From contig CAJTKB010000005.1 of NCBI GenBank assembly GCA_910576925.1, forward strand, positions 3,139 to 67,138: a stretch of 64,000 nt of DNA. The letters run 5' to 3'. The translations under genes were made by a program, and so were the position numbers. How positions within the stretch are numbered: position 1 is the stretch's first letter; each line of letters opens with the position of its first letter. This document shows positions 8,244 through 35,126 of the stretch, piece after piece. The DNA comes from an uncultured Bacilli bacterium. Its GTDB lineage: Bacteria > Bacillota_I > Bacilli_A > RF39 > UBA660. The notes under the pieces were generated by a model. It was not told where the DNA came from and searched no databases. It was given only the letters and a program-made list of their open reading frames with translations.

Positions 8244-10556
8244 TTAATTATCAAAGAAATCATCAAAAAAGTCATCATCATCATCTTCATCTGATAAATC
8301 AAGATTAACCTTATCTTGAGATGGATGTTCTTCTTTATCAATTATTGCATCTTTTATAACCTTATTATTATCTACCTCTACATTTGAAATACTAGAAGGT
8401 TTAGCTGCAATCTCGCTCTTATTCTTTTCTTCTTCTGCATTTCTTCTTTCTTCTTCCTCAAGTTCAGCAATTTTAGCATCTATTTTCTTAACTAATTCAT
8501 CTACATTTATTCCACCAGGAGAAGATGAAGAAGCACCAAATGGTGTATCTTTACTACCTCCCATATTAGATAGGCTTTGACTAAACATTGGTGGCATATC
8601 AGCATCTTTAATTCCAAATGGATTAGAAATATCAGAAGTTGGTTTAGGTCTATTAGAAAGACCTGGTACCTCAGGAAGATTCATTGGCATATCAGGGGCA
8701 CTAGGAAACTTAGGAAGTCCTGGCATAGATGAAGACATTCCACCCATACCTGGAAATCCTGGCATTCCAAAAGGACTAGGCATACCAGAACCAAGGAATG
8801 GTGAGTCACCCTTTTTATCAGCAGAATTCATCATCTCTTGTAATTGCTTCTTCTTTCTCTCCTTTACAAATTCCTTTAAATCAAATGTACATACAGGAAC
8901 TTTTTCACGATTAGGATAACTTGCTTTAGGATAATTCTCCTTCCAATCAAGTTTATAATCAGGTGTAAAATGAGTCTTAAAAGGATTCATACGTAAACGC
9001 ATTATAATAACATCATTTTCTTTCATATGTTGTAAATCTGATATTGTAACTAAAGGAGTCGAAGCTGTTTTATCATCCTTTTTGGATTTAACTTCTCCAC
9101 ACATTTTACTAATTTCTTCAAGAGCCTTAAGTTCTGTTGTAACAAGATAGATAAGATTACCACAGTTACCGCGTAAAGTCTCAGCATCTTCTTTACCATA
9201 AACACCATCAAGTTGAGCAAAGTTCTGAATAATCATTGTAAATCTAATTTGTCTAGAACGTGCTGCTGTAATCATTGTTGTAACATCTTTTAAAGGTGGC
9301 ATATTGGCAAACTCATCAAGCAAGAAATTTGTTCTAACAGGAAGCTTACCACCATTTTCTTGAGCAACAGAAATCAAAGTTTCATAGATCTGTTTTAATA
9401 GAATTGTAACTAATGAGTGATATGTCTTTTTTTCATCTTGTATAACAATAAATACAGCAGTTGGTTTTTTACCAATACTTTCTAAATCAACATCACTATG
9501 TGATAACATTTCAGATAAATTTTCACGAGAAGCGAATAACTTAATTTTCTGTTTAAAGACAGATAAAATACTTCCCTTAGTATCAGTAGGTGCATTAATT
9601 GTACTAGAAGCATTAATATAAGCTGTACTTGCAGGATCTTTTGCATTAAAGTATTCCTTTATAAAAGTAGTTCCACCAAACTTATCTTCACCAACATTAC
9701 TCATAAGTGAAATACTATTAATATTGATTTCTTCTTCCTTAGCATCTTCAAAAAGTCCTAAAGCAAGTCCCGAAAAATAATCAGCTGACGTTTTCTCCCA
9801 GAAAGGATCAGCATTTTTATTACTAGGATCATACAAAATATTTAAAGCAAGGTCATCTAGTAACTCAATAGCCTTATCCTGATTACCACTTTTATACATT
9901 TTATATGGTAAATCCATTGGATTCCAAGCACTACCATTTTGTGGATCACGAAAGTTTAATAATAAGATTTGATATCCTTTAGCACGTAGCATCTCTGAAG
10001 TTTTTTCATAAATCTCACCTTTAGGATCAGTAATAACCATACTTTCTCTATGTTTAGCAAGTACTTTAACAGTTGGTAATATAACTGATTGAGTTTTTCC
10101 TGAACCAGTAGCACCAATTACTAAAGTATGATTTTCTCCATTATCTACATAAATTTGATCTCCCTTATAAATTAATGGAGTTCCACCAGCATTACTTTTA
10201 TTTGCTTTAACATCGATTACTTCAACCGCTTTACTATTAATAATCTCTTTGTCCTTTGCCCATCTAGAATATCCTTTATCCTTCTTATCAGTAGTTATTC
10301 CTATACCCTTCTCAAATTCAAATATAGTTGATTTTGCTCCCATCAAACAACCACCAAGAGCAAGAATAAAGAAACATATTGTACTACCAATATATCTAGA
10401 TGAAAAGGCAGGAAGAGGATTAGGTCCTGCTAAATAACCATATTGTGCAAAACTAGACAAATTAACTACAGCTACTGCCACAATATATAATAAAAATATT
10501 GAAAATATTAACAACATCAATAAATCTTCTGAATCAATTCTAATCTTTAACTTCAT
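8244..10556 (-). CDS. Type IV secretion coupling protein, VirD4/TraG/TraD family
   Basis: Two N-terminal TMs. Walker A VIGATGSGKTQSVILP, then ...LLDEFANMPPL...RSRQIRFTMIIQNFAQL. The C-terminal 200 aa are P/G/M-rich low complexity ending in the acidic tail DEDDDDDFFDDFFDN. Confidence 0.8.
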   Translation of the reverse strand: MKLKIRIDSEDLLMLLIFSIFLLYIVAVAVVNLSSFAQYGYLAGPNPLPAFSSRYIGSTICFFILALGGCLMGAKSTIFEFEKGIGITTDKKDKGYSRWAKDKEIINSKAVEVIDVKANKSNAGGTPLIYKGDQIYVDNGENHTLVIGATGSGKTQSVILPTVKVLAKHRESMVITDPKGEIYEKTSEMLRAKGYQILLLNFRDPQNGSAWNPMDLPYKMYKSGNQDKAIELLDDLALNILYDPSNKNADPFWEKTSADYFSGLALGLFEDAKEEEININSISLMSNVGEDKFGGTTFIKEYFNAKDPASTAYINASSTINAPTDTKGSILSVFKQKIKLFASRENLSEMLSHSDVDLESIGKKPTAVFIVIQDEKKTYHSLVTILLKQIYETLISVAQENGGKLPVRTNFLLDEFANMPPLKDVTTMITAARSRQIRFTMIIQNFAQLDGVYGKEDAETLRGNCGNLIYLVTTELKALEEISKMCGEVKSKKDDKTASTPLVTISDLQHMKENDVIIMRLRMNPFKTHFTPDYKLDWKENYPKASYPNREKVPVCTFDLKEFVKERKKKQLQEMMNSADKKGDSPFLGSGMPSPFGMPGFPGMGGMSSSMPGLPKFPSAPDMPMNLPEVPGLSNRPKPTSDISNPFGIKDADMPPMFSQSLSNMGGSKDTPFGASSSSPGGINVDELVKKIDAKIAELEEEERRNAEEEKNKSEIAAKPSSISNVEVDNNKVIKDAIIDKEEHPSQDKVNLDLSDEDDDDDFFDDFFDN

Positions 10557-10600
10557 AAGATACCACCCACTTTCAAAAATGTATTATATCATTAAATCTT

Positions 10601-11374
10601 CTAATTAGAAATAATTTCTTTAAATTTCTCGTTTTTATAGCGATATAATATCACATCTTTACCTAAATTACTATAATATGAGCAATTTATCATAAGATAA
10701 TTTTTATTATCTAATTCTAATATATTAGATACATATGGTTTACAAGTATTATCCAAAGAATTATTATCATATACTTTTTCATATATCATACTAATTTCAT
10801 TATTATCAACCAAAAATATAAATCCAAATGCCTTAGTACTATCATCTTCTGAAAAAACATTAGATATTGTATAAATTTGTTCCTCTACAGAATCACGATC
10901 TATATCTATATTAATAACATTGTTAACAGTTAAATTAGTAGTTACAATATCATATTTAGAAAAAACAGCACTAATGTAACTATCAATATTATTAGTATTC
11001 TTATCAAAACTTCTAATATTATATTTTAAGTCACTACTAATTCCTAACTTATTAGAAAAATCTAAATTTGCTTTTTTCTTATTGTTATCCATTAAATTCC
11101 AAACACCACTATAAATTAAATAATACTTTCCAAGTCCTTCACTTTCATCATAAATATCAAACAAATTCCAATTATAATTTGCCCTATTATTAGTCGGAAT
11201 ATTTCTCCATTCTTTATTTTTATATACAAATAAAGCATCATTTCCCACAGCTAAATTAATATAATTATTTACTCCTCTACCCTTATCTTTCTTAAAAAAG
11301 AATACAAAGAAAATAACAATATAAATAACAGCAATAATCAAAATAATATTATAAATTTTTTTATTCTTTTTCAT
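10601..11374 (-). CDS. N-terminally anchored extracytoplasmic protein, possibly a VirB8/TcpC-like T4SS component
   Basis: A single N-terminal TM followed by a 230-aa soluble domain. Its position between the coupling protein and the hydrolase matches the architecture of Gram-positive VirB8-like proteins. There is no motif-level support. Confidence 0.3.
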   Translation of the reverse strand: MKKNKKIYNIILIIAVIYIVIFFVFFFKKDKGRGVNNYINLAVGNDALFVYKNKEWRNIPTNNRANYNWNLFDIYDESEGLGKYYLIYSGVWNLMDNNKKKANLDFSNKLGISSDLKYNIRSFDKNTNNIDSYISAVFSKYDIVTTNLTVNNVINIDIDRDSVEEQIYTISNVFSEDDSTKAFGFIFLVDNNEISMIYEKVYDNNSLDNTCKPYVSNILELDNKNYLMINCSYYSNLGKDVILYRYKNEKFKEIISN

Positions 11375-11383
11375 ATCTTCTCC

Positions 11384-13612
11384 TTAACCAACAGTATAAT
11401 AAAGTATTCTTGAAGTGTTTTTCCATTTATAAACTTTCCACATATCATTAGAATTACTACCATTTGGTGGATCAGGATCCATTATTTTTATAGTATCACC
11501 ATTAACAGATTCAATAGCAACCCAATGCTGACCATCGTCTCCCATAACTTCTGCAATAACAGCATAATTATTATTAACTACTTCTCTAATAGTAGATAAT
11601 TTCTGAGCTTTTGACATACCTCTAAGTTCTATATTATTGCCAAACTTAAATGATGGAACAATTTCTGTAACTTTTCGCCATTGTAGAAATGCTCTATTAT
11701 CAAATCCACCAACTGCACTTAATGAAGTAGCAAAAGTACCTGGATCTAACTCTCCACTTATTGTAGTTTGAGCATTAAATTTTTTTACTAACATAGCAAT
11801 AGAAGTAGACATACAACCCGAACTACCAACAGTCATATTAGTATTACCAAGTTTTATATTAGACCACTTAGGATCTTTTTGACGCCATGTAGTATAATCT
11901 CCTGTAGAAGAAACACAAGAACTAGAACTTGTAATATCCCACTGTTCTAGATTATACTTTCTGATAGTATTTGTAATCTTAGATACATAATTAACATCTG
12001 TAGCATATCCTGCTTCTTTTATACGCTTTATTTGCTCATATGGATCTGTTGCTTGAGCTACTCCATGTCTAACATAGGTTCCTCCACTAACAAGAAGTGC
12101 TGAATGATCAAGTATTGCTTCCTCCACATTTTTAAATTTTTTAAAAGAAGACATAATAGTATATACACTACCACTACTTGTATTCTCTTGAGTAAGTACA
12201 GGTTCTGTACAACTTCCATCCCAAGTTGAAGGTGAAAGAATGTCCTTAGAACATTTAATTCCAAACAAATTATTAGAATCTGCTGTAGGAGTATGCTTAC
12301 CCCACCCAGCTTCGATAATAGCTTGTGCTATAGTAACTGATGCAAAAATACCTGTTTGAGCATATGCCTGATTAGCAATAGGACCAATAATATTAAAAAA
12401 CTCTTCTTGACTAACAGTTTTAAATATACTAGCTTGTGTATCACCATTAATAACACAAACTCCGCCTCCACCTTTACCACCAACAATATTTTTATAATCT
12501 TCAAGATAAGTAAATACTTCATCAGTTGCTTCCGCACATTCTTCTTTATCTAAATATTTAGGAAAAAATCTATTTTCTAAATAATTTCTAGCTGTACTCT
12601 CATTATAATTATATCTACAATTCTTTTCACCGTTTTCATCCTCTTCCTCACATGCTTCATCAAATAAATTATCAGCAATTTCACGAATTAAGGATTTTGT
12701 CATATCAGAAGGTTTAAATTTGTTACTTCTTGATGCCAATATATGATATATTCCTCCAATAACATCAGCAGAAAAATTTTTTCCATTAGATTGATATTCT
12801 TGTTGCACTTCTAATATATTGTTATACATCTCTTCTAATTTCTCGTCCCCACCTGAGGCTCCTGAAACATCTGCTTGATTACCAGCTGAACCAATTCCAA
12901 TAAGTGTCAAAAATCTACTTGCCGCCATTAAAGGGATTGATAATGCAAATATAAAAAAAATAAATGGTATAACAAAAGCAGCTACATAAATAACTATCTT
13001 TTTAGTAAAGAAACTTTTAGTTTTACTTGAAACTTCTTTTTTATTCTCTTTCGAGTCATTATCCTGATTTGTACTAGAAATACCCTCTTTATCATTTTTA
13101 GAGCTTGTCCTATTAACATATATATTTCTAATATTTCTAGCAAAATTATTTTGTAATTGCTCATTCAGTTTATTATCATTTTTTTCTCTTTCTCTATCAG
13201 CATTTGACTTTGAAGGTTGTGCAATATCTGTATTACTATTAAGGTTTCGCTTACCAACATTATCATCTTTTACTTTTGAATTTTTACTAGTTCCTTTATC
13301 AAACAACTTATTTCTATTAGGATTCTTCATTGACAAAGCCCCATTAGCTGCATTTAAAGCCCCTAAATCATCTGCTTTTTTAGCAACTTTTCCAAAAGTA
13401 CCACCAGTAGCAGTATTAAGAGCTTTTCCTGCTTTTTCTTCCGCTTTATCAATTTTTTTACCCGCTATAGGAGCCTTTTTAAGAGAATCATATACTCTTC
13501 CACCTTGGCCTCCTGTTAAATAGTCAATTCCTCCTTTAGCAGCAACGCCTGCAGCCTTTTTTGATGTTTCATCCTCTTTACGTTTTTGACTACTTTTTTC
13601 TTCATTGTTCAT
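11384..13612 (-). CDS. Bifunctional cell-wall hydrolase (GH73 N-acetylglucosaminidase plus C-terminal cysteine peptidase), CwlT/TcpG-like T4SS hydrolase
   Basis: K/N-rich N-terminus, a TM, then AQAIIEAGWGKHTPTADSNNLFGIKC (GH73/FlgJ-type). The C-terminus carries GSSGCMSTSIAML ... DGQHWVAIESVNGD, a papain-like Cys/His peptidase (C39/CHAP-like). Confidence 0.7.
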   Translation of the reverse strand: MNNEEKSSQKRKEDETSKKAAGVAAKGGIDYLTGGQGGRVYDSLKKAPIAGKKIDKAEEKAGKALNTATGGTFGKVAKKADDLGALNAANGALSMKNPNRNKLFDKGTSKNSKVKDDNVGKRNLNSNTDIAQPSKSNADREREKNDNKLNEQLQNNFARNIRNIYVNRTSSKNDKEGISSTNQDNDSKENKKEVSSKTKSFFTKKIVIYVAAFVIPFIFFIFALSIPLMAASRFLTLIGIGSAGNQADVSGASGGDEKLEEMYNNILEVQQEYQSNGKNFSADVIGGIYHILASRSNKFKPSDMTKSLIREIADNLFDEACEEEDENGEKNCRYNYNESTARNYLENRFFPKYLDKEECAEATDEVFTYLEDYKNIVGGKGGGGVCVINGDTQASIFKTVSQEEFFNIIGPIANQAYAQTGIFASVTIAQAIIEAGWGKHTPTADSNNLFGIKCSKDILSPSTWDGSCTEPVLTQENTSSGSVYTIMSSFKKFKNVEEAILDHSALLVSGGTYVRHGVAQATDPYEQIKRIKEAGYATDVNYVSKITNTIRKYNLEQWDITSSSSCVSSTGDYTTWRQKDPKWSNIKLGNTNMTVGSSGCMSTSIAMLVKKFNAQTTISGELDPGTFATSLSAVGGFDNRAFLQWRKVTEIVPSFKFGNNIELRGMSKAQKLSTIREVVNNNYAVIAEVMGDDGQHWVAIESVNGDTIKIMDPDPPNGSNSNDMWKVYKWKNTSRILYYTVG

Positions 13613-13668
13613 ATAATCACCTACTTACATCAATAGGGTCATAATATCCCCCTTAAAAAATATCTATA

Positions 13669-15459
13669 CTATAGTCCTCCACCACTACCAAATGAGTCCA
13701 ACTCATCATTTGTAATAGCAACATTAATTTGCATTCTACGATTTCCACAAACAAATAAAGCTTCTCCTTGTGAATAACGTTTTATAGAGTCCTTTTCACT
13801 ATCATTTAAATCAATAAGTTTAGCTAAATCTTCAACAGCTTGTTTTTTAAGTCCCATAACTAAGTAATAAGAAGCATTATCAAAAATAGCTTTTCCTTGT
13901 GTAATTACAGATGGATCTGAAAAGTCACTTGGTTGCTGTGTAATTATCATACTAGCAGTATTATATTTTCTAGCACGTCTTTGAATTTGGGCTAAAAAGT
14001 CAGCACCTAAGGCATTATTATCACCTAATATTACGTGTGCTTCATCTACCATTAGTATAGTATTAATTGAAGGATTTAAGCACAAACTCCAAGCATATTT
14101 CAAAATATTAAAGAATAAAGCATTACGAACATTACTATCACTATTCATTAATTCTTTTATATTAAATACCATAAAATCACTATCAGCAGCAAGAGTAGTA
14201 TGACCATCGAAGTAGAATTTTAATTCCTTAGTAATAGGCCTAATTTTTAATTCAAGACGCTCTAAAATATCACGCTCTTGTGTCTGCTCAGTAAGAGACA
14301 TTAATCTACCTTTAATAGTTGCATAAACATCAGTAAATGTTGGATAATCTTGCGAAGTAAAGCGAGAAAAATCTGTATTATAATCAATTCCAAATCTTCT
14401 ATAAGTATCTTGTACTATTTCACTAAACATAGTAAGAACATCTTCCTGTACTGAAGGATCATAATATTTAAGAAATGCTTTTAAAGTTTGAAGTGTTCTA
14501 GTAAGAACAGTATACCCAAGTCCTTGACGAATTTCTTCTTCATCAGCATCAATTACTACTTCTAAAGGATTTATTAGTCCAAAACTTCCACCTTTACCAA
14601 TATCAATAGTATCTCCCCCAAAAGTTCTAGTAATATCACGAAGTTCATCTTCAGGATCAATCGCAATAATTTGACAACCATTTCTAATATGAGTACGAAG
14701 AAGAAGTTTAGCAGCTGTACTTTTTCCTGATCCACTTGTACCTAAAATAATCATATTAGCATTATTTCTATTACTTTCTTTTTTAACTTGATATAAAAAC
14801 TGATTAAATAAAACTACTCCTCCAGAAAAATCTACTCCAAGTAAAGTTGAAAGCCCTGGATCTTTTATACTATCAAATATAAATGGATACATCGCCGCAA
14901 TTGTTTGACTTGGCATAGGTGTACCAATTCTTTCTTCAACATCTTGTTTTGGAAATATTGGAAGAATTGATTTTAAAACTTTTTCTTGTTCAAATCTTAA
15001 AGGAATTGCTCTAAGTTCCATTGCATCTAAATAATTTCTTACATTAGTTTTCATAAGTTCAAGTGTTTCTTTAGTATCACTCGTAATCATAATATGCATT
15101 TGAAAATCAAATATCTGAGCCTGACTAGCAGCAAGCATAGATGTAAAATATTGCAAGCTCTCAGCATCTTGTCTTAATCTTTCTTTGGTAGTTAAATCCT
15201 TTTCATCTTTATATCTATCTTCTAAATCAGCTACTTGTTTATTTAACATCTTAGACATTGCATAAAAAGGAACAGGAATATGTTTTACTACGATTTTTAT
15301 TCCTGGCATACTAGTAAGAGTAGATAAATATCCTGGCATAATATATTTAGGATATGATATTACAGTTAAAATTGTGGCATACTTATCACTTATAAAAAAG
15401 TCACTCAAAGAGAAATTTAATCCTTTTGGAGCAAGTTCACTCTTAATACTTATACTCAT
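13669..15459 (-). CDS. VirB4-family T4SS ATPase, C-terminal ATPase part (TcpF/ConE/Orf16-like)
   Basis: Walker A IILGTSGSGKSTAAKLL, then MVDEAHVILGD (Walker B region). About 600 aa. Its start overlaps the stop of the upstream ORF in ATGA. Confidence 0.8.
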   Translation of the reverse strand: MSISIKSELAPKGLNFSLSDFFISDKYATILTVISYPKYIMPGYLSTLTSMPGIKIVVKHIPVPFYAMSKMLNKQVADLEDRYKDEKDLTTKERLRQDAESLQYFTSMLAASQAQIFDFQMHIMITSDTKETLELMKTNVRNYLDAMELRAIPLRFEQEKVLKSILPIFPKQDVEERIGTPMPSQTIAAMYPFIFDSIKDPGLSTLLGVDFSGGVVLFNQFLYQVKKESNRNNANMIILGTSGSGKSTAAKLLLRTHIRNGCQIIAIDPEDELRDITRTFGGDTIDIGKGGSFGLINPLEVVIDADEEEIRQGLGYTVLTRTLQTLKAFLKYYDPSVQEDVLTMFSEIVQDTYRRFGIDYNTDFSRFTSQDYPTFTDVYATIKGRLMSLTEQTQERDILERLELKIRPITKELKFYFDGHTTLAADSDFMVFNIKELMNSDSNVRNALFFNILKYAWSLCLNPSINTILMVDEAHVILGDNNALGADFLAQIQRRARKYNTASMIITQQPSDFSDPSVITQGKAIFDNASYYLVMGLKKQAVEDLAKLIDLNDSEKDSIKRYSQGEALFVCGNRRMQINVAITNDELDSFGSGGGL

Positions 15460-16076
15460 ACAGGTATCACCGTCCCAAAATTAGTATCCATTCCCCCATT
15501 TAAGAAATTATTAATAATTACTCGCAAATCTTCATTACTAGTTTGACTAGCATTAAGCCCACATCCAGCAAGTCCATTTATTAGTAATCTAATCTTTCTT
15601 TGTAATTCATCATCCTTCTTCTCTTTAAATAAGATATAATATTCAGTATCTACTACATTATTATTAATAAAACTATTAGCTTTCTCTATATCTTGAGAAA
15701 TTAGTTTACGAATAGCAGGAGAGGTTGATTTATTATATTGTAATTGCAACTGTGACATATAAACAGATATATCAACAGGTCTATCAGCAACAACAAGCCA
15801 AAATTCAAAATCTATCATATTATAAAAGTTCTTCAAGCTAATCAAAACACTACTTTGCATATCCTGATCAAGTATAAATATATTACGAGGAGTTATTTTA
15901 ACACCAGTAACTTTATATTTATCATCCGTTATAATCATTCCATTTTGTATTGCTCTAATAGGCAACCAATTTTCTGTAAATGGACTTGTATTATTTTTTG
16001 TCTTTTTCATCGCTAATTGCACACCAACCTTTCCATATATATCTTTGTCTATGGGAAAAAAATTCAACTGCCTCAA
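15456..16076 (-). CDS. Probable N-terminal domain of a split VirB4
   Basis: 206 aa ending ...GTVIPV, immediately followed (stop/start overlap GTATGAGT) by the VirB4 ATPase ORF. 206 + 596 aa is about 800 aa, the usual VirB4 size. Confidence 0.45.
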   Translation of the reverse strand: MRQLNFFPIDKDIYGKVGVQLAMKKTKNNTSPFTENWLPIRAIQNGMIITDDKYKVTGVKITPRNIFILDQDMQSSVLISLKNFYNMIDFEFWLVVADRPVDISVYMSQLQLQYNKSTSPAIRKLISQDIEKANSFINNNVVDTEYYILFKEKKDDELQRKIRLLINGLAGCGLNASQTSNEDLRVIINNFLNGGMDTNFGTVIPV

Positions 16077-16308
16077 TAATTATTACCAGCATATTATGAT
16101 AATTTGGCACTGGTATTACCAAACAACAACAAACAATAGCAGGACTTAGGGCAAATACTACTAGCCCTGTAGAAGTAAGTGGCACAAGTAACATAAATAA
16201 TACAGTTAAGCTTACTCCTGAACCTAAAATTATCAAATCGATTGTTCTAAAAAGTCCAAAGATAAGTTCTCCTTTTTTTGTATTAGCAGGTATTAAATAT
16301 TGATTCAT
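15991..16308 (-). CDS. Small two-TM membrane protein, VirB3/ConD/Orf17-like
   Basis: 105 aa with two hydrophobic helices, directly upstream of VirB4 and overlapping its start, as in Tn916 orf17-orf16. Confidence 0.4.
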   Translation of the reverse strand: MNQYLIPANTKKGELIFGLFRTIDLIILGSGVSLTVLFMLLVPLTSTGLVVFALSPAIVCCCLVIPVPNYHNMLVIIIEAVEFFSHRQRYIWKGWCAISDEKDKK

Positions 16309-16337
16309 TATATATCACACCCTTTTTTATTCTATAT

Positions 16338-18425
16338 CTATTTATTATTCTTTTGTTGAGAAAATCTATCATTTTGTTCATTCATAGAATTTCTTCTCTT
16401 AGTAGCAGCAAGTCTAGTCTGCATAGTATCAATAGTCTTATTAACACTATCTCTATCATCAATTTTAGTAACTCCACCGAATTTAGTAGAACCCTTCATC
16501 TCTGCATCACGAATAAGATCCTTTAATACACTATCATCATAATGTCCTGCAACTACTTCTCTTAGATAAAAATCTTCATTATTTTTAAGTAAAAATCCTT
16601 TTTGCATCTCTGCTTGTTGAACAGTAATAGTTTGATTATGCCCAGTATTATCTACAAAGCTAACAACATCACTACCTGCAGCTTTTGCCTGTTCAATTGC
16701 AGCAATAAATGATTTATAATTTGCTCTAATTGCATTACCAGCATCATCAGTTATACCAGTATCTCCATATGTCCAATCTTGTTTAACCATTTCTCCAGAC
16801 ATACGAGATTTAACAGCTTCCAAAGCAGCCTTATGAGCTTCCATACCAGCAATTTCTCTTTTTAGAATTTCGGCCTGTGATTCACCAAATAAATCACGAG
16901 ATAAACTAGAGCCTAATCTACCAAGACCAGTAGAACCAGCATGCCCCATTGCAAGCTGAGTAGCATTTCTTTGATTTATTGCATTAATTGTCGCTCTACT
17001 TTGATGATCTTTAGCACCAGAGGCTGAAACAAGGCCAGTTCCCACACCAGATACTGTACCAGTTGCTGCAGACATTACTGCTCTTATTCCACTAGTACTA
17101 GATCTAAGACTATTAGCAATTCTTCTTCCTACATTTTTAATATGTTGTCCATCATTTTCTTCAATCAATCTCTCAGTTTCAGCATTTCTAGTAGCAGTTG
17201 CTGCTCTACTTGCTTTAAATGAAGCTGCCGCCATACCAGGCATACGCATAGCAATTGATCCAACAGCCATCATCTTACCAATACCACTAAAGAATCCTCC
17301 AGTATATTTCATACCCATAGATTCAACTACAAACTTTGGAAATTCCTTTGCGAAAAAGAATAGAGCTATAATTATGATTACATATGTAAATTTACCAACC
17401 ATACCAGAAGAAACTGATATAATAATTCCATTAGTTACAAATTCATCTAATAAGAATATAATGAAAAATACAACTATAAGTCTTAAGAACAAATCAATAA
17501 ATGTCTTACTAACAGTTTTTCCCCAAGTATTTAATGAATTATTATCATTTTTAAAATCTACACTTCCTATAATTGGTACAGGAGCTATTAATCTTAAAAT
17601 AGCAAGTTTTAAGGCACGTATAGCAACATCTAATGTAAAACCTATCATAATTATTATCATAATTATAGCAGATACAGTTGATAAAATATATGTATAATTA
17701 AATAAATAACCATCATCACAATGTTCTGTTACTAAATTAAGTATTTCAGTTGTATCATTAGTAGTAAGATATGTATTAATATAACTATCATATTTACTAT
17801 CAGAACACATTCTATTATTACCACCAAAATCAGTTGCATTTTCTTTTCCATGGGCCATATTTACAGTTATAAAACTCTTTAACACAACAGCTGCTAAATT
17901 ATTACCCGCATCTTTCATAGACTCATTACTAGCTAAATCAGATCTTACACTTTCACCATTTCCAAGTACAAGTTTGGCAAGAGTATTGTCAGAAAGTATT
18001 CTATTTTGAAGTTCATATAAAGTTCCAAATAATATACCATTATTATTAAGTTGCGCTTCATAACTACCATCAGCAATATCAGTATCTGGAATATTTAAAG
18101 GAACAATCATTATAAGAAGAATTAAAGCTATAATGATTTTAGAAACAAGTTTACCTGCACCACTTTTATTATCTGTTATTTTATCTGGATTTACTATACC
18201 ACTTATTAAAGTAACTGCAAGTCTAAAAACTATAGCAATTCCTAATATTAGTTGTATTCTACTAAACAATACTTTTATTGTTTCTCCACTGATTAAAGAA
18301 GAACTAGCAACATTGAAAAATATTTGATAAATAAAGCTTATTAGAGAATAAACAACTTTATCAATCGCTGCAAAAAGTTCTAAAAATAAACTTCTAAACC
18401 ATGAATATTTAGTACTATCAGACAT
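16338..18425 (-). CDS. VirB6-like polytopic T4SS membrane channel protein (TcpH/ConG/Orf15-like)
   Basis: 695 aa with at least six TMs in the N-terminal two thirds and an A/G/S-rich hydrophilic C-terminal extension. Positioned between VirB3-like and VirB2-like genes. Confidence 0.6.
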   Translation of the reverse strand: MSDSTKYSWFRSLFLELFAAIDKVVYSLISFIYQIFFNVASSSLISGETIKVLFSRIQLILGIAIVFRLAVTLISGIVNPDKITDNKSGAGKLVSKIIIALILLIMIVPLNIPDTDIADGSYEAQLNNNGILFGTLYELQNRILSDNTLAKLVLGNGESVRSDLASNESMKDAGNNLAAVVLKSFITVNMAHGKENATDFGGNNRMCSDSKYDSYINTYLTTNDTTEILNLVTEHCDDGYLFNYTYILSTVSAIIMIIIMIGFTLDVAIRALKLAILRLIAPVPIIGSVDFKNDNNSLNTWGKTVSKTFIDLFLRLIVVFFIIFLLDEFVTNGIIISVSSGMVGKFTYVIIIIALFFFAKEFPKFVVESMGMKYTGGFFSGIGKMMAVGSIAMRMPGMAAASFKASRAATATRNAETERLIEENDGQHIKNVGRRIANSLRSSTSGIRAVMSAATGTVSGVGTGLVSASGAKDHQSRATINAINQRNATQLAMGHAGSTGLGRLGSSLSRDLFGESQAEILKREIAGMEAHKAALEAVKSRMSGEMVKQDWTYGDTGITDDAGNAIRANYKSFIAAIEQAKAAGSDVVSFVDNTGHNQTITVQQAEMQKGFLLKNNEDFYLREVVAGHYDDSVLKDLIRDAEMKGSTKFGGVTKIDDRDSVNKTIDTMQTRLAATKRRNSMNEQNDRFSQQKNNK

Positions 18426-18445
18426 AACCCCACCTCCTTATATAC

Positions 18446-19252
18446 TTACTTTATACCACAAACTTGATCACCACTAGTGCCAAATACTAAATTAAGTATT
18501 AAATTAGCAAATAATGGTAAGAAAAATAATCCAATAGCACACAAAAGTCTAATTCCAAACTTTTTCTGCACTTTTTTCATATTTTCATCATCATTAGAAA
18601 GAATTGATTTAGTAAAATCAATTGAACCTAAAAGTATCACTAAAATAGGACCTAATATTTTAATATAATTAAATAATTTTTGTAAAAATTCAACTACACT
18701 ATTTCCAAGAACTTGATCACAAGAAACAACTGGATCTCTTGAAATATCTAATCCACCAGATAAATTCCCAGAATTATTATTGTTAGAATCATTTCCATTA
18801 ACAGTTACATAAGCACTATTATTAATACTATTAAGCTCAACTACTTCATGTCCACTTTTTCCAGGAGTTAAAGATTCAGCCTTATCAGTCATATCAGCTT
18901 TATTATAAAAGGCATATACTCTAAAAGTATTAGGTATAAAACCCCAATTTACATTATAAAAAACTAGAGCATAATTTGGGCATACTTCACTAGTCTTCTG
19001 CCCTTTAGCTCGACTTTTATCAAAATTTAATACTTTTTCTCCATTAGTTACAGCCTTACCTTTATAGTAAGTAATAGTTCCTCGAGCTATAGAATAATTA
19101 TCATAAATATCAAACTCATATTTAGTACCACCATCACTACTTGCATATGAACAAGTAGCTAACTTATTTTTTGCATAGGTACTAATTGGAAAAAATAATA
19201 TAAATAAAGCAATAAATATATATATAATTTTTCTACAAATAAATTTATTCAT
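18446..19252 (-). CDS. Secreted protein with a C-terminal VirB2/TrbC-like TM hairpin
   Basis: Signal peptide (ILFFPISTYA), a 170-aa extracellular domain, then LVILLGSIDFTKSILSNDDENMKKVQKKFGIRLLCAIGLFFLPLFANLILNLVF, paralogous to the C-terminus of the next gene. Confidence 0.5.
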   Translation of the reverse strand: MNKFICRKIIYIFIALFILFFPISTYAKNKLATCSYASSDGGTKYEFDIYDNYSIARGTITYYKGKAVTNGEKVLNFDKSRAKGQKTSEVCPNYALVFYNVNWGFIPNTFRVYAFYNKADMTDKAESLTPGKSGHEVVELNSINNSAYVTVNGNDSNNNNSGNLSGGLDISRDPVVSCDQVLGNSVVEFLQKLFNYIKILGPILVILLGSIDFTKSILSNDDENMKKVQKKFGIRLLCAIGLFFLPLFANLILNLVFGTSGDQVCGIK

Positions 19253-19344
19253 CAGTACTCACCCCAATTTAGGCAATATCAAATTTATTATATCAGACAA
19301 AAATAAAAATAGCAATTACAATTACTATTTTCTATATATTATTT

Positions 19345-19725
19345 CTATTCATCAGCTCTGCCCCAACAAGTAGCCCAACTTTCAGCATTTCCTACATCAT
19401 CACTATCACTATAATTAGCAACTATATTAAATACTAAAGAAACAATTGTTGTCATAAAGAAAATAACAACAGCATATAAAATTCTCTTTATTAATCTACT
19501 TTGAGCAGCTTTTACTTCCTTATCTTCACTTGATAAAACAGCCTTACCTAAATCAATAGTACCTAATAAAAGCAAAATTATTGGAATACCCATTTGAATC
19601 AATGGAAAAACTCCAAGTTTAATAACTCTAATAATAGGTAAAATATCCTTACACATATCAGCTTTTGCTGCTATTAGCATTAAACCATTCATTAATATCT
19701 CTCCTTCACTAATATTATGATACAA
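19345..19725 (-). CDS. Small membrane protein with VirB2/TrbC-pilin-like topology
   Basis: ILLLLGTIDLGKAVLSSEDKEVKAAQSRLIKRILYAVVIFFMTTIVSLVF: two hydrophobic helices separated by a charged loop, aligning with the C-terminus of the 18446..19252 product. Confidence 0.5.
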   Translation of the reverse strand: MYHNISEGEILMNGLMLIAAKADMCKDILPIIRVIKLGVFPLIQMGIPIILLLLGTIDLGKAVLSSEDKEVKAAQSRLIKRILYAVVIFFMTTIVSLVFNIVANYSDSDDVGNAESWATCWGRADE

Positions 19726-19755: not shown

Positions 19756-20730
19756 TTAAATTTTGAATAAACCAAATAATTTCTCAGTTTTTTGTTCTCC
19801 CTTAGTACCCAGTAATCCTAACTTTTGAACTAAATTTGCAATATAGTCACTCTTTCTTCTTTCATCTATTGGTGGTAATGTAAAAAATACTCTTGTATTT
19901 GATTCATATTCAAACTGCTCTACATCTTTACTAGAAAGAATACACTTGTTAAGGATTATTTTCTCCCCCTCTAATGACTTAAATAATTTATTATTAATTC
20001 TCATAAGTTTATTAAGCATAATAGTACTAGGTTCTAATAAATAAAGTACATCTGTACAATTTGAGTAATCTTTTAAATCATTAAGATCAACTAAAATAAT
20101 CTTAGCTTCTAACTTTTCTATTGTCGACTTTAAACTATCTTTATTAGTAGTAATACATCTTTCAACATTAAAATATTCTAAATCATGCCTACTTATTTCA
20201 ATAGCATATACTAAATCCCCATATGTTTTCTCTAATTCCTTCTTTAGCATATATACAAGTGTTGTTGCACCAGCATGACTTGATAAGTTTTTAATACCAA
20301 CTACCACTTTACCAGAATTAGCATCAGCACAAACAGGCGTAGGAACTGGTTCCATTTCCTTGACATATGCCACATCAGCCTCTGAATTATCATGAGTAAG
20401 TAAATACTGAACTCCTTTAATATTATTAGTAAAATTATAAATTCTAAAACTAACTAATTTAGATAAATAAGTAGAACTAGATACTTCTGGTATATTAGGC
20501 AAAAAAAAGATTATTTTACTTGCAACTAATCCCATAGATAATTTCTGAATATTAGAAATATTTAAATAATCTTTTACTGCTGTAATATCAAGTATCATCT
20601 TATTAAAATAGAAATTCTTAAAAGTATTAACAATTTCATCAGCCGAAAAAACACCATTCATACTTTTAATTACATCAATATCTAAATTAGAAAGTTCATT
20701 TTGTCTTTCATTTGTAACAATTACATTCAT
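19756..20730 (-). CDS. TadZ/CpaE-like protein (deviant ParA/MinD ATPase fold)
   Basis: GKVVVGIKNLSSHAGATTLVYML (degenerate Walker A of the KGGxGKTT type) in the C-terminal half. Context is next to CpaF/TadB/TadC. Confidence 0.4.
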   Translation of the reverse strand: MNVIVTNERQNELSNLDIDVIKSMNGVFSADEIVNTFKNFYFNKMILDITAVKDYLNISNIQKLSMGLVASKIIFFLPNIPEVSSSTYLSKLVSFRIYNFTNNIKGVQYLLTHDNSEADVAYVKEMEPVPTPVCADANSGKVVVGIKNLSSHAGATTLVYMLKKELEKTYGDLVYAIEISRHDLEYFNVERCITTNKDSLKSTIEKLEAKIILVDLNDLKDYSNCTDVLYLLEPSTIMLNKLMRINNKLFKSLEGEKIILNKCILSSKDVEQFEYESNTRVFFTLPPIDERRKSDYIANLVQKLGLLGTKGEQKTEKLFGLFKI

Positions 20731-21219: not shown

Positions 21220-21238
21220 CTAATACCTCCTTAAATTA

Positions 21239-34732: not shown

Positions 34733-34733
34733 A

Positions 34734-35072: not shown

Positions 35073-35126
35073 ATTCCCTCCTATATATATTTATATAAGA
35101 AAAGATCAAGCAAATTGATCTTAACA

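What the first reader, a model, noticed from the sequence alone, without database searches (positions are those of the whole stretch)
8244..19725. Conjugation-type T4SS gene set with no relaxase or integrase in view
The segment encodes a VirD4-like coupling protein, a candidate VirB8-like protein, a CwlT/TcpG-like bifunctional hydrolase, a VirB4 ATPase, a VirB3-like small protein, a VirB6-like channel protein and two VirB2-topology proteins. No relaxase, oriT-like repeat, recombinase or replication gene appears anywhere in the 64 kb. Either the mobilisation and integration genes lie further along, or this is a chromosomal T4SS adapted for protein or DNA export or uptake rather than self-transfer.
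Basis: partly seen in the sequence, partly recalled or inferred. Interest (0 to 1): 0.6.

Follow-up and report, generated by a model that had tools for sequence, protein, structure and literature searches.

The report
Chromosomal T4SS–Tad pilus machine, RF39 bacteria
The conjugation-type secretion genes are real, but they are half of a 27-kb secretion-plus-pilus machine that is fixed in the chromosome of a whole order of uncultured, small-genome gut bacteria, has no DNA-mobilisation genes, and so looks like a plasmid-transfer apparatus that the cell has taken over for its own use.

Summary
The T4SS gene set at 8244-19725 is real: VirD4, a VirB4 split into two genes, PrgI/VirB3-like, VirB6-like, two VirB2-like "T4SS_pilin" proteins and a cell-wall hydrolase. 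The "VirB8-like" call is not supported. No relaxase, recombinase, replication gene or att repeat was found in the 64 kb or within about 10 kb beyond either end.

Together they form one co-directional block, about 6998-34224.

This T4SS-plus-Tad architecture, including the split VirB4, matches the tra region of pAW63/pXO2-type Bacillus plasmids, minus their MobP3 relaxase.

In 80 species-level genomes of uncultured gut and rumen Bacilli (inferred order RF39), the genes from cpaB to virD4 keep the same order, usually next to rhodanese-rmuC-trpS. VirB4 co-diverges with RmuC and evolves more slowly.

It is therefore not an ICE but a vertically inherited, selected, conjugation-derived machine. The closest analogue is the chromosomal relaxase-less T4SS of Patescibacteria. 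Its substrate (protein or DNA) is unresolved. I found no paper describing it.

The parts
6998..8191 (-). 397-aa surface protein: N-terminal TM segment and DUF6273-type C-terminus. It is the last gene of the conserved block.
   Evidence: Pfam DUF6273 8.5e-5, just below cutoff. One TM segment. Found immediately after virD4 in 57 of 80 loci.
8244..10556 (-). VirD4-type coupling ATPase (T4CP), CD1115 family. It has a 215-aa Pro/Gly/Met-rich, then poly-acidic, C-terminal tail.
   Evidence: T4SS-DNA_transf 3e-60, TraG-D_C 3e-24, TrwB_AAD_bind 9e-24. NF045973 306 bits, above cutoff 250. 60-76% identical in 71 loci. 31% identical to pCT72 VirD4. Tail composition.
10601..11374 (-). 257-aa bitopic membrane protein with an all-beta ectodomain. 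Its fold is not NTF2/VirB8-like.
   Evidence: No Pfam or NCBIfam hit. A profile search found no PDB sequence match. AF2 pLDDT 83.4, pTM 0.75. Foldseek against PDB: no match at E<=0.001, best 0.029, weak beta-propeller-containing chains only. Present in 39 loci at 24-35% identity; other species have different small membrane or lipoproteins in this slot.
11384..13612 (-). 742-aa cell-wall hydrolase. Order of parts: cytoplasmic N-terminal region, one TM segment, glucosaminidase domain, C-terminal papain/C39-like domain.
   Evidence: Glucosaminidase 9e-29. FlgJ and GsmA-type NCBIfam hits. C-terminal residues 564-742: Peptidase_C39 0.004, C39_2 0.012, DUF3335 0.017. TM at 206-224. Other species carry M23+lysozyme or NlpC/P60 in the same slot.
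13669..15459 (-). VirB4 ATPase, C-terminal two-thirds (596 aa), encoded as a separate gene.
   Evidence: NF045975 2e-102, matching model positions 294-891; CD1110 family 3e-48. 76-89% identical in 80 species genomes. 28.7% identical to the pAW63/pXO2-type plasmid DUF87 protein. pN/pS 0.23.
15456..16010 (-). VirB4 N-terminal domain as its own gene (TrsD-like), translationally coupled to the ATPase gene by an ATGA overlap.
   Evidence: NF045975 model positions 93-276, 2e-16. Junction sequence read directly. The split is conserved in 78 of 78 loci: 70 with ATGA, 8 with TAATG. 28% identical to the 227-aa protein upstream of pCT72 VirB4. TrsD as a separate VirB4 N-domain homologue is described in PMC12102498. 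The ORF finder lists a TTG start at 16076; the ATG at 16010 is more likely.
15991..16308 (-). 105-aa PrgI/VirB3-like protein with two TM segments.
   Evidence: Two TM segments. Same position as the PrgI-family gene of pCT72. hhalign against that protein: 50%, E 1.6e-4 over 90 columns. Present in 77 loci. No Pfam PrgI hit.
16338..18425 (-). 695-aa polytopic VirB6/TrbL-like channel protein with a long C-terminal extension.
   Evidence: TrbL_4 0.007. MMCAP2_0566 9e-9 and Mbov_0396 3e-6, both below cutoff. About 6 TM segments. Present in 74 loci but fast-evolving: 25-47% identity, pN/pS 0.85.
18446..19252 (-). 268-aa protein: signal peptide, ectodomain, and a C-terminal T4SS_pilin (VirB2-like) two-TM hairpin.
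   Evidence: PF18895 0.003, residues 184-255, below cutoff. TM segments at 9-27, 193-211 and 239-257. Present in 72 loci.
19345..19725 (-). Small T4SS_pilin (VirB2-like) two-TM protein.
   Evidence: Its family profile matches the PF18895 domain of 41923-42774 at 97.6%, E 4e-12. Two TM segments. Two invariant Cys. Present in 70 loci.
19756..20730 (-). 324-aa cytoplasmic protein in the position of TadZ. It may be ParA/MinD-like with a degenerate P-loop; this is not shown.
   Evidence: No Pfam, NCBIfam or PDB sequence hit. hhalign against the pCT72 AAA ATPase is not significant: E 0.084, aligned only at the P-loop-like stretch. Conserved in 64 loci.
20737..21712 (-). Two TadE/TadF-like pseudopilin candidates (160 and 157 aa). 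Each has a short charged leader ending in Gly, then one TM segment.
   Evidence: Sequence read directly. One N-terminal TM segment each. Conserved after the Flp-like gene in 58-59 loci. No family hit.
21725..21883 (-). 52-aa Flp-like prepilin.
   Evidence: The N-terminus MK(A/E)A(S/T)G-ELN(L/M)TV(I/V)T followed by a 20-residue hydrophobic stretch is conserved across the printed orthologues from 61-65 loci. The gene lies directly after the TadC-like gene, as in Tad loci. No Pfam Flp hit.
21948..23641 (-). TadC-like (263 aa) and TadB-like (300 aa) polytopic platform proteins.
   Evidence: blastp to the two membrane proteins that follow the T2SSE ATPase on pCT72: 2e-7 and 7e-6. Weak mutual paralogy: hhalign E 3.7e-4. 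55-75% identical in about 60 loci. At least 8000 90%-identity clusters in public data; all the listed hits that carry a name are called hypothetical. No T2SSF Pfam hit, and the AF2 model is poor, pLDDT 60.
23650..25245 (-). TadA/CpaF-type (VirB11-like) secretion ATPase with a 200-aa Asn-rich tail.
   Evidence: T2SSE 1.5e-27. VirB11 2e-31 and TadA family 1e-28, both below cutoff. 27% identical to the pCT72 T2SS/T4P/T4SS ATPase, 4e-34.
25289..26104 (-). CpaB/RcpC-like (SAF domain) pilus assembly protein.
   Evidence: RcpC 4.5e-6 (27.0 bits against cutoff 28.8) and SAF 0.004. TIGR03177 4e-9. 29% identical to the pCT72 SAF protein, 9e-26.
26118..26606 (-). DUF5411 protein with an N-terminal TM segment. 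It is a recurrent companion of CpaF-type pilus operons in Firmicutes.
   Evidence: PF17424 1.3e-48. Same position in L086 and L088. Association with CpaF/PilC operons noted in PMC9523054.
26627..30034 (-). 1135-aa secreted or surface protein with 41 Cys. It is a candidate adhesin or pilus-associated protein.
   Evidence: No family hit. N-terminal hydrophobic segment. Cys count. A 940-1130-aa protein occupies the same slot in L086 and L088.
30018..30827 (-). Class B sortase.
   Evidence: Pfam Sortase 1.5e-8. Homologues are named class B sortase. Same position in other species.
30839..32611 (-). 590-aa surface protein with a bacterial Ig-like domain and a DUF6273-type C-terminus.
   Evidence: Bact_surface_Ig-like 2e-18. 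Conserved position.
32644..34224 (-). 526-aa polytopic membrane protein with a DUF4352 ectodomain. It is the first gene of the conserved block.
   Evidence: DUF4352 3.6e-4. Conserved as the first gene in L086 and L088, while the genes upstream of it differ between species.
41923..42774 (-). T4SS_pilin (VirB2-like) domain fused to an NlpC/P60 endopeptidase. It is unlinked (7.7 kb away, beside murC) and may be an accessory component.
   Evidence: PF18895 6.7e-9 (36 bits, above cutoff 26.6) and NLPC_P60 7e-17. The P60 part is 32% identical to the NlpC/P60 protein encoded after VirB4 on pCT72.

Best explanation
The region is not a mobile element. It is a vertically inherited chromosomal organelle locus of about 27 kb (window about 6998-34224, minus strand, 24 genes). 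It is derived from a monoderm conjugation apparatus of the pAW63/pXO2 plasmid type.

It joins three modules:
1. A T4SS translocon: VirD4 coupling ATPase, two-gene VirB4, PrgI/VirB3-like, VirB6-like, two VirB2-like T4SS_pilin proteins and a peptidoglycan hydrolase.
2. A Tad/Flp-type pilus machine: CpaB, TadA, TadB/C-like, Flp-like prepilin, two pseudopilin-like proteins, a TadZ-position protein and DUF5411.
3. A sortase B/surface-protein module.

Proposed mechanism (inferred from the functions of the homologous families):
- The pilus and large surface proteins make and hold contact with another cell.
- The hydrolase opens the wall locally.
- VirB4, VirB6, VirB3 and the pilin-like proteins form the membrane channel.
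- VirD4 selects a cytoplasmic substrate and feeds it out.

There is no relaxase, oriT candidate, integrase or replication gene, and every species in the clade carries the locus at the same site. The machine therefore no longer serves to spread itself and has been co-opted for a host function. The most likely function is contact-dependent delivery or exchange of macromolecules with neighbouring cells.

Rough weights on the substrate: protein or other host-benefit cargo about 0.4, relaxase-independent or trans-mobilised DNA about 0.35.

Shown: gene content, homology, synteny, co-divergence, purifying selection, absence of mobility genes. Inferred: assembly into one machine, direction of transport, substrate.

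The confidence of 0.8 applies to the claim that this is a chromosomally fixed, non-mobile, conjugation-derived T4SS-Tad machine, not to any particular cargo.
For: Gene content.

Homology to a plasmid transfer region. pCT72 (pAW63/pXO2-type, typed conjugative, MOBP) encodes, in order:
- MobP3 relaxase, VirD4 (CD1115 family), TrbL, PrgI;
- a 227-aa VirB4 N-domain protein, DUF87 VirB4, NlpC/P60;
- further on, a SAF/CpaB protein, an AAA ATPase, a T2SSE ATPase, two membrane proteins and small proteins.
blastp links seven of these to window proteins.

Synteny:
- tblastn against 80 species-representative genomes shows the same order from cpaB to virD4, followed by DUF6273-rhodanese-rmuC-yuzI-trpS.
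- The far side (DUF4352 protein, Ig protein, sortase B, large protein, DUF5411, cpaB...) is conserved in other species, while the genes upstream of it differ.
- The split VirB4 is conserved in 78 of 78 loci.

Vertical descent and selection:
- Pairwise VirB4 distances correlate with RmuC distances (r 0.65, 42 genomes). VirB4 is less diverged (0.145 against 0.212).
- virD4, tadB and tadC correlate with VirB4 (r 0.76-0.80).
- pN/pS: VirB4 0.23, RmuC 0.29, VirD4 0.40.

Less biased sampling anchored on RmuC: the T4SS is present upstream in 13 of 14 close relatives with enough sequence.

No mobility genes, att repeats or tRNA:
- in the window;
- in the flanks;
- among ORFs of the 80 loci that lack a window homologue.

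Intergenic gaps run from -20 to +92 nt, and no intrinsic terminator is predicted inside the block.

Precedent for co-option: the chromosomal, relaxase-less, MPF_FATA-derived T4SS of Patescibacteria. It has TrsD, PrgI, VirB6 and PF18895 pilins, and is essential for epibiotic growth in one cultivated strain (PMC12102498; PMC12857230).
Against: - No expression, structural or genetic data exist. These organisms are uncultured.
- A relaxase encoded elsewhere in the genome could not be excluded, because whole genomes could not be scanned.
- Several assignments rest on position, topology or sub-threshold scores: TadB/C, Flp, pseudopilins, TadZ-position protein, VirB3-like, VirB6-like.
- No prepilin peptidase was found in the window.
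- The 80 loci were chosen by VirB4 similarity, so they cannot show how many clade members lack the system.
- In the RmuC-anchored sample, one close relative (L139) and about half of the more distant ones lack it at this site.
- pS of about 0.6 is near saturation, so the pN/pS values are rough.
- The order-level assignment (RF39) is inferred from record names and one paper, not from a phylogeny.
Confidence: 0.8

Rival explanations
1. Ordinary ICE or integrated plasmid whose relaxase and integrase lie just outside the window.
For: The gene set is of conjugative type. The nearest annotated relatives are conjugative plasmids.
Against: - Housekeeping genes bound the block inside the window.
- About 10 kb beyond each window end is also housekeeping.
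- Gene order and right-hand context are the same in 80 species.
- There are no att repeats or tRNA.
- VirB4 co-diverges with RmuC.
Confidence: 0.03
2. Decaying remnant of an ancient integrated conjugative element, no longer functional.
For: The relaxase and integrase have been lost. Some components evolve fast: VirB6-like pN/pS 0.85, DUF6273 protein 0.80.
Against: - All 24 ORFs are intact here.
- The ATPases are more conserved than the neighbouring RmuC.
- Walker motifs are present (read directly).
- Translational coupling of the split VirB4 is kept in 78 of 78 loci.
- About 27 kb (about 1.8% of the 1.52-Mb complete related MAG OZ006970.1) is retained across at least 80 species.
Confidence: 0.03
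3. Still a DNA-transfer machine. It conjugates chromosomal DNA or mobilises small elements between cells. It would use a relaxase encoded elsewhere, or a relaxase-independent route such as those reported for pXO16 or for mycoplasma chromosomal transfer.
For: - The ancestry is conjugative.
- VirD4, including its all-alpha domain, is retained in cis in every species.
- VirB4's best family hit is the mycoplasma ICE ATPase.
- pXO16 transfers plasmids and chromosomal loci, and no relaxase has been identified for it (PMC9673590).
- T4P-assisted DNA exchange is known for R64 and for the archaeal Ced/Ups system (PMC12102498).
Against: - No relaxase or oriT candidate is present in any of 80 loci.
- By convention, relaxase-less T4SSs are read as non-conjugative.
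- No DNA-processing genes (primase, SSB, topoisomerase, ParA/B) lie in the block.
Confidence: 0.3
4. DNA-uptake (competence) system analogous to Helicobacter ComB, with the Tad pilus capturing DNA.
For: - These are genome-reduced organisms that might scavenge nucleotides.
- Tad pili have been linked to DNA uptake in some bacteria (reference cited within PMC11680825).
Against: - ComB-type systems lack VirD4 (PMC12857230). Here VirD4 is universally retained.
- At least one related contig carries a separate N_methyl-type pilin gene, suggesting a conventional pseudopilus elsewhere (L088).
Confidence: 0.08

Closest known systems
tra region of pAW63/pXO2/pBT9727-type conjugative plasmids of the Bacillus cereus group (example examined: pCT72, NC_017205.1)
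   Same: - CD1115-family VirD4.
- VirB4 split into an N-domain protein plus a DUF87 ATPase.
- PrgI and TrbL-type proteins upstream of VirB4.
- A wall hydrolase after VirB4.
- A linked Tad-like module: SAF/CpaB, a 'VirB11'/T2SSE ATPase, two polytopic proteins, small pilin-like proteins.
- Large surface proteins in between.
Sources; PMC9673590.
   Different: - The plasmid has a MobP3 relaxase next to VirD4, recombinases and a replicon. The window has none.
- Module order is inverted: the Tad module lies upstream of the T4SS here.
- Identities are only 20-31%.
- PF18895 pilin-like proteins, DUF5411, sortase B and DUF6273 proteins were not matched on the plasmid.
- Here the system is chromosomal, fixed and clade-wide.
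Chromosomal relaxase-less T4SS of Patescibacteria/CPR (PMC12102498; reviewed in PMC12857230)
   Same: - Monoderm, MPF_FATA-related.
- Chromosomal, with no relaxase.
- Widespread in a lineage of small-genome uncultured bacteria.
- Same core repertoire: VirB4, a separate TrsD-like N-domain protein, PrgI/VirB3, VirB6 and VirB2-like PF18895 pilins in more than one copy.
- Peptidase or lysozyme genes after virB4.
- Type IV pili act alongside it.
   Different: - Different phylum (Bacillota).
- VirD4 is always adjacent here, but rarely so in Patescibacteria.
- The pilus genes are physically fused into the same locus and are of the Tad type.
- The phylogenetic relation of the two VirB4 clades was not tested.
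- There is no experimental evidence of essentiality here.
Mycoplasma integrative conjugative elements (MICE; Mbov_0397 VirB4, Mbov_0396 TM protein)
   Same: The best-scoring NCBIfam models for VirB4 and for the VirB6-like protein are the mycoplasma ICE families. RF39 and Mollicutes are related lineages of class Bacilli (PMC10868615 abstract).
   Different: - Scores are far below the family cutoffs (343 against 590; 27-35 against 70-90).
- VirB4 is a single protein of about 890 aa in MICE but split here.
- No DDE transposase, inverted repeats or other MICE genes are present.
- The locus is not mobile.
Gram-positive Tad loci (e.g. Bifidobacterium tad; predicted CpaF/DUF5411 pilus operons of Roseburia, Ruminococcus and Eubacterium, PMC9523054; TANB77 pilus cluster, PMC11680825)
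   Same: CpaB, the TadA ATPase, TadB/C-type platform proteins, short pilin-like genes, and DUF5411 (the last in the Clostridia operons).
   Different: Those loci stand alone as adhesion pili. Here the module is fused to a complete T4SS with a coupling protein. No prepilin peptidase was seen in the locus.

Membership tests
Integrative conjugative element / self-transmissible element | VirB4-family ATPase and T4SS membrane components | tested here: met
Integrative conjugative element / self-transmissible element | Type IV coupling protein | tested here: met
   NF045973 scores above its cutoff.
Integrative conjugative element / self-transmissible element | Relaxase (MOB) with oriT | tested here: not met
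   - No relaxase domain among the window ORFs of 80 aa or more that were scanned or have Pfam records (59 of 63).
- The MobP3 relaxase of pCT72 gives no tblastn hit at E<=1.
- None found in the flanks.
- None among the ORFs of the 80 loci that lack a window homologue.
- The rest of the genome was not searchable.
Integrative conjugative element / self-transmissible element | Integrase or recombinase, and flanking att repeats or a tRNA target | tested here: not met
   No recombinase domain. No tRNA. Only imperfect AT-rich chance repeats.
Integrative conjugative element / self-transmissible element | Variable presence or insertion relative to conserved flanks among close relatives | tested here: not met
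   Same order and same right flank in 80 species genomes. Present in 13 of 14 close RmuC-anchored loci.
pAW63/pXO2-type transfer region | CD1115-type VirD4, split VirB4, and a Tad-like module (SAF protein, T2SSE ATPase, two polytopic proteins) | tested here: met
   blastp E-values from 2e-41 to 7e-6 for seven proteins. Annotation of pCT72.
pAW63/pXO2-type transfer region | PrgI and TrbL family proteins upstream of VirB4 | tested here: inconclusive
   hhalign 50%, E 1.6e-4 for PrgI. TrbL_4 0.007.
pAW63/pXO2-type transfer region | MobP3 relaxase and plasmid replicon | tested here: not met
Tad/Flp (type IVc) pilus | TadA/CpaF secretion ATPase | tested here: met
   T2SSE 1.5e-27, above cutoff. The TadA and VirB11 subfamily models score below their cutoffs.
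Tad/Flp (type IVc) pilus | TadB/TadC platform proteins (T2SSF fold) | tested here: inconclusive
   - No T2SSF Pfam hit.
- No PDB sequence hit.
- AF2 model too poor to search, pLDDT 60.
- Support comes only from position, topology, weak paralogy and homology to the pCT72 membrane proteins.
Tad/Flp (type IVc) pilus | Flp prepilin with a class III signal peptide, and a dedicated prepilin peptidase | tested here: inconclusive
   A conserved short leader ending in Gly, followed by a hydrophobic stretch. However, there is no Flp family hit, and no prepilin peptidase was found among the window ORFs.
Tad/Flp (type IVc) pilus | CpaB/RcpC | tested here: inconclusive
   RcpC 27.0 bits against cutoff 28.8. 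TIGR03177 36 bits against cutoff 71. 9e-26 to the pCT72 SAF protein.
Patescibacteria-type co-opted T4SS | Chromosomal, no relaxase nearby, and widespread in the lineage | tested here: met
Patescibacteria-type co-opted T4SS | Repertoire of VirB4 + TrsD + PrgI/VirB3 + VirB6 + PF18895 pilins | tested here: met
   Some components score below threshold.
Patescibacteria-type co-opted T4SS | VirB4 falls inside the monophyletic Patescibacteria clade | not tested
The nearest named relatives at about 27-33% identity are Firmicutes.
Patescibacteria-type co-opted T4SS | Required for epibiotic growth | not testable with these tools
   The organisms are uncultured (PMC9606305).
Mycoplasma ICE | Mbov_0397-family VirB4 above the family cutoff, and a DDE transposase | tested here: not met
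   343 bits against cutoff 590. No transposase domain in the window.
ComB-type DNA-uptake T4SS | Works without a VirD4 coupling protein | tested here: not met
   VirD4 is present and conserved. Definition taken from PMC12857230.
VirB8 family (for 10601-11374) | Bitopic protein with an NTF2-like extracytoplasmic domain | tested here: not met
   The bitopic topology is met. The confident AF2 model is all-beta and has no VirB8, TcpC or TraM match in PDB.

The most novel reading that the evidence does not exclude
RF39 is an order of gut bacteria with no cultured member. It may depend on this conjugation-derived T4SS-Tad organelle for an obligate cell-contact lifestyle (epibiotic, parasitic or tightly syntrophic on other gut bacteria or on host cells), as Saccharibacteria depend on theirs.

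The RF39-type locus is a Bacillota system that already combines TrsD, VirB4, PrgI, VirB6 and PF18895 VirB2-like pilins. It may therefore be the sister or source lineage of the Patescibacteria T4SS, whose origin and pilin acquisition are open questions.
Probability: 0.2. Interest if true: 0.85.

Novelty: new variant of a known kind. Interest (0 to 1): 0.62.

Why it matters
**Relation to the current view of monoderm T4SSs.** A 2025 review states that Gram-positive T4SSs lack VirB11 homologues. It also states that VirB2-type pilins occur in monoderm T4SSs only in Patescibacteria, where the T4SS is needed for epibiotic growth (PMC12857230). This locus is a Bacillota lineage with:
- VirB2-like T4SS_pilin proteins;
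- an attached TadA/VirB11-like ATPase with a complete Tad module;
- a coupling protein.

All are fixed in the chromosome and more conserved than a neighbouring housekeeping gene.

**Scale.** RF39 is prevalent in human and animal guts and has never been cultured. Its genomes are small: a complete related MAG is 1.52 Mb, and RF39 is described as a reduced-genome clade (PMC11680825). Keeping 27 kb for this machine in such genomes implies a central role. At least 8000 sequence clusters of one component are in public data, and the listed ones that carry a name are all called 'hypothetical'.

**What it could enable:**
- a concrete handle on why these bacteria resist cultivation, for example a partner requirement;
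- a second, independent case of co-option of a conjugation machine in reduced-genome bacteria;
- a candidate link for the origin of the Patescibacteria system.

Tried and rejected
- **VirB8 assignment of 10601-11374.** Rejected after a profile search of PDB sequences, an AF2 model and Foldseek.
- **Fold test of TadB-like 22739-23641.** The AF2 model was too poor (pLDDT 60), so no fold search was run. Profile searches of PDB sequences with the TadB-like, TadC-like and TadZ-position families found nothing.
- **TadZ homology to the pCT72 AAA ATPase.** Not significant.
- **pil126 against the 126-aa protein after pCT72 VirD4.** No similarity.
- **b8like against the 155-aa protein after the pCT72 hydrolase.** No similarity.
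- **Rfam and tRNA scans of the window.** Nothing found.
- **Promoter scan.** Counts equal the shuffled expectation, so it is uninformative.
- **Search for att-like repeats.** Only chance AT-rich pairs.
- **Attempt to place Patescibacteria among the VirB4 representatives by cluster names.** Names were too sparse.
- **First dN/dS script.** Timed out and was redone on existing alignments.
- **L133 as a clean 'empty site'.** Its Mur ligase is only 25% identical to the window murC, so it is not the same neighbour.

Full report
**1. What is in the window**

The window has low GC (about 27%), and almost every gene is on the minus strand.

- Low-coordinate side: trpS, a YuzI-like gene, rmuC and a rhodanese.
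- High-coordinate side: a two-component system, murC, mltG/yceG, ruvX, pyruvate:ferredoxin oxidoreductase and greA.

There is no tRNA and no Rfam match.

**2. Check of the listed components**

- VirD4 (8244-10556) is solid: T4SS-DNA_transf 3e-60, and NCBIfam conju_CD1115 above its cutoff.
- VirB4 is real but is encoded as two genes. 13669-15459 matches positions 294-891 of the mycoplasma-ICE VirB4 model (2e-102). The upstream ORF 15456-16010 matches positions 93-276 (2e-16). The two overlap by ATGA.
- The hydrolase (11384-13612) has a glucosaminidase domain (9e-29). Its C-terminal domain gives three weak but concordant peptidase-C39-like hits.
- The VirB6-like protein gets only sub-threshold support. 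It is polytopic, with TrbL_4 at 0.007 and hits to two mycoplasma-ICE transmembrane families.
- The VirB3-like protein also gets only sub-threshold support. It has two transmembrane segments, and hhalign to the PrgI-family protein of a related plasmid gives 50%, E 1.6e-4.
- The two 'VirB2-topology' proteins are better supported. 18446-19252 hits PF18895 T4SS_pilin weakly. The family profile of 19345-19725 matches, at 97.6% probability, the N-terminus of a third protein (41923-42774). That protein carries a bona fide PF18895 domain fused to NlpC/P60.
- The 'VirB8-like' protein (10601-11374) is not supported. A confident AF2 model (pLDDT 83) shows one transmembrane helix and an all-beta ectodomain. 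It has no VirB8, TcpC or TraM match in PDB.

**3. The negative claim holds**

- Pfam found no relaxase, recombinase, transposase or replication-initiator domain. 59 of the 63 window ORFs of 80 aa or more were scanned or have Pfam records. The other four are short ORFs antisense inside larger genes.
- The MobP3 relaxase and two tyrosine recombinases of the nearest plasmid relative give no significant tblastn hit.
- No credible direct repeats flank the block.
- Contigs carrying exact copies of edge genes show what lies beyond the window. To the left are LtaS and LytR-CpsA-Psr. To the right are a Big_2 surface protein, trigger factor and glycosyltransferases.

**4.

Directly upstream and co-directional, with gaps of -20 to +92 nt and no predicted terminator, lie two further modules.

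Tad/Flp-type pilus module:
- CpaB/RcpC-like protein;
- TadA/CpaF-type ATPase (T2SSE 1.5e-27; VirB11 and TadA models about 1e-30);
- two polytopic TadB/C-like proteins;
- a 52-aa Flp-like prepilin with a conserved MKAA(S/T)G-ELNLTV leader;
- two pseudopilin-like proteins;
- a cytoplasmic protein in the TadZ position;
- DUF5411.

Further upstream:
- a 1135-aa protein with 41 Cys;
- a class B sortase;
- an Ig-like/DUF6273 surface protein;
- a DUF4352 membrane protein.

**5. Relatives on plasmids**

tblastn of VirB4 against PLSDB finds, as best hits, pAW63/pXO2-type conjugative plasmids of Bacillus thuringiensis (28.7% identity, 2e-76).

The annotated region of pCT72 reads, in order:
- MobP3 relaxase, VirD4 (CD1115 family), hypothetical protein, TrbL, PrgI;
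- a 227-aa hypothetical protein, DUF87 VirB4, NlpC/P60;
- after a gap, a SAF-domain protein, an AAA ATPase, a T2SS/T4P/T4SS ATPase, a membrane protein, a hypothetical protein, a small protein and DUF4320.

blastp links VirD4, both VirB4 parts, CpaB, TadA and both TadB/C-like proteins to the window proteins.

The T4SS-plus-Tad combination and the split VirB4 are therefore ancestral to this family of transfer regions. pAW63 is experimentally conjugative, and its 42-kb tra region is described as encoding VirD4, VirB4 and VirB11 homologues (PMC9673590). What the window lacks relative to the plasmid is the relaxase, the recombinases and the replicon.

**6. Relatives in genomes**

A scan of one genome per species for VirB4 relatives returned at least 557 matches. 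The best 80 are 76-89% identical. All are uncultured gut or rumen MAGs labelled Bacilli, Tenericutes or Mycoplasma sp. CAG:877, or Candidatus Onthousia. The GTDB genus CAG-877 belongs to order RF39 (PMC8035907), which has no cultured member (PMC9606305). The order assignment of the window is my inference from these names.

tblastn of 42 window proteins against the 80 loci shows the same gene order in essentially every locus long enough to display it:
cpaB - tadA - tadB - tadC - flp - two pseudopilin genes - TadZ-position gene - pilin126 - pilin268 - virB6 - virB3-like - virB4N - virB4C - hydrolase - small membrane protein - virD4 - DUF6273 - rhodanese - rmuC - yuzI - trpS.

The VirB4 split is conserved in 78 of 78 loci, 70 with an ATGA overlap and 8 with TAATG.

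Contexts of sortase homologues from other species show the far side is also conserved: DUF4352 protein, Ig protein, sortase B, large protein, DUF5411, cpaB and onward. The genes upstream of it differ between species. This sets the block at about 6998-34224.

**7. Vertical inheritance and selection**

- Pairwise protein distances of VirB4 correlate with those of the adjacent RmuC (r 0.65, 42 genomes). VirB4 is the less diverged of the two (0.145 against 0.212).
- VirD4, TadB-like and TadC-like distances track VirB4 (r 0.76-0.80).
- pN/pS is 0.23 for VirB4, 0.29 for RmuC and 0.32-0.40 for VirB4N, TadA, TadB/C-like and VirD4. It is higher for exposed components: VirB6-like 0.85, DUF6273 0.80, pilin126 0.63. 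pS is about 0.6, so these ratios are rough.
- At 50% clustering, the RF39-type VirB4 collapses to one full-length cluster. The next full-length relatives are at 42-43% and are unnamed. Then come Firmicutes proteins at about 27-33%: Thomasclavelia ramosa, a Mycoplasmatota plasmid, Clostridium sp. and Solobacterium.
- A less biased sample anchored on RmuC in metagenomes shows the T4SS upstream of rmuC in 13 of 14 close relatives with enough sequence. About half of the more distant ones have it. One of those lacking it is a lineage with SpoIIGA at that site.
- ORFs in the 80 loci that have no counterpart in the window are alternative hydrolases (M23+lysozyme, NlpC/P60), lipoproteins and DedA. None is a mobility gene.

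**8. Interpretation**

The evidence excludes an ICE and a decaying relic. It supports a host-fixed machine derived from a conjugation apparatus.

The mechanism follows from the established roles of the homologous families:
- pilus and adhesins make cell contact;
- the hydrolase remodels the wall locally;
- VirB4, VirB6, VirB3 and the pilin-like proteins form the channel;
- VirD4 selects the substrate.

The substrate cannot be decided here.
- Universal retention of VirD4 argues against a ComB-like uptake system.
- Absence of any relaxase in more than 80 loci argues against classical conjugation.
- It does not exclude relaxase-independent or trans-mobilised DNA transfer, which has precedents in pXO16 and in mycoplasma chromosomal transfer.

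**9. Comparison with what is known**

The closest conceptual analogue is the chromosomal, relaxase-less, MPF_FATA-derived T4SS of Patescibacteria.
- It has the same core set: VirB4, separate TrsD, PrgI, VirB6 and PF18895 pilins.
- It is essential for epibiotic growth in one strain (PMC12102498).
- A 2025 review treats that system as unique among monoderms, and states that Gram-positive T4SSs lack VirB11 and VirB2 (PMC12857230).

Full-text searches found no paper linking RF39 to a T4SS or to Tad pili in this sense. At least 8000 90%-identity clusters of the TadB-like protein exist in public data, and the listed hits that carry a name are all called hypothetical.

I therefore rate this a new variant of a known kind. 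The parts and the idea of co-option are known. This particular fused T4SS-Tad locus, fixed in a Bacillota order, appears undescribed.

**10. Limits**

- Whole genomes could not be scanned for a distant relaxase or a prepilin peptidase.
- Several assignments are positional or sub-threshold.
- The 80 loci were selected by VirB4 similarity.
- No Patescibacteria sequences were available for a phylogeny.
- No functional data exist.

Noticed in passing
window 41923-42774 (-): A gene beside murC, 7.7 kb outside the conserved block, fuses a bona fide T4SS_pilin (PF18895, above cutoff) two-TM domain to an NlpC/P60 endopeptidase. Its P60 part resembles the hydrolase encoded after VirB4 on pCT72. It may be a detached T4SS component.
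   Followed up: partly
window 6998-8191, 30839-32611, 51779-52987, 62638-63984: Four paralogous DUF6273-type surface proteins lie in one 64-kb window, two inside the block and two far from it. This suggests a large family of surface proteins in these genomes.
   Followed up: no
L066:4851-7028, L049:14662-16011 versus window 11384-13612: The wall-hydrolase slot after virB4 is domain-shuffled between species: glucosaminidase + C39-like here, M23 + lysozyme or NlpC/P60 elsewhere. The small membrane or lipoproteins between the hydrolase and virD4 are also replaced between species.
   Followed up: partly
window 26627-30034 and 34322-34732 (+): The 1135-aa protein has 41 cysteines. A lipoprotein-type thioredoxin sits divergently at the upstream edge of the block, here and in L088. 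Several ectodomain proteins have invariant Cys pairs. This hints at extracytoplasmic disulfide formation in an anaerobe's surface machine.
   Followed up: no
window 8244-10556 (residues 556-770) and 23650-25245 (residues 331-531): VirD4 carries a 215-aa Pro/Gly/Met-rich tail ending in DDDDDFFDDFFDN. TadA carries a 200-aa Asn-rich tail. Both look disordered and could be docking regions.
   Followed up: no
window 34764-36122 (-): Three small ORFs without family hits (102-aa acidic, 95 aa, 226 aa) lie between the block and an SDR gene. They are absent from the equivalent position in L086 and L088. A strong bidirectional terminator-like hairpin at 34730-34766 separates them from the block.
   Followed up: no
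L123:6880-7710 and L133:7444-10984: Some more distant RmuC-bearing relatives lack the T4SS at this site. L123 has SpoIIGA, MurD, HolA and DedA upstream of rmuC, so it is a sporulating lineage. L133 has a Mur ligase followed by rhodanese-rmuC. These may mark the boundary of the clade that carries the locus.
   Followed up: partly
L088:856-1629: A related contig encodes a conventional N_methyl-type (type IVa/Com-like) pilin about 9 kb upstream of the block. These bacteria may therefore have a second, separate pilus or pseudopilus system.
   Followed up: no
L049 (OZ006970.1, 99483-121270 of 1,517,539): In the one complete circular MAG, the locus lies about 100-120 kb from the record start. If the record starts at dnaA, this would be origin-proximal, as reported for Patescibacteria T4SSs. 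The record's origin was not checked.
   Followed up: no
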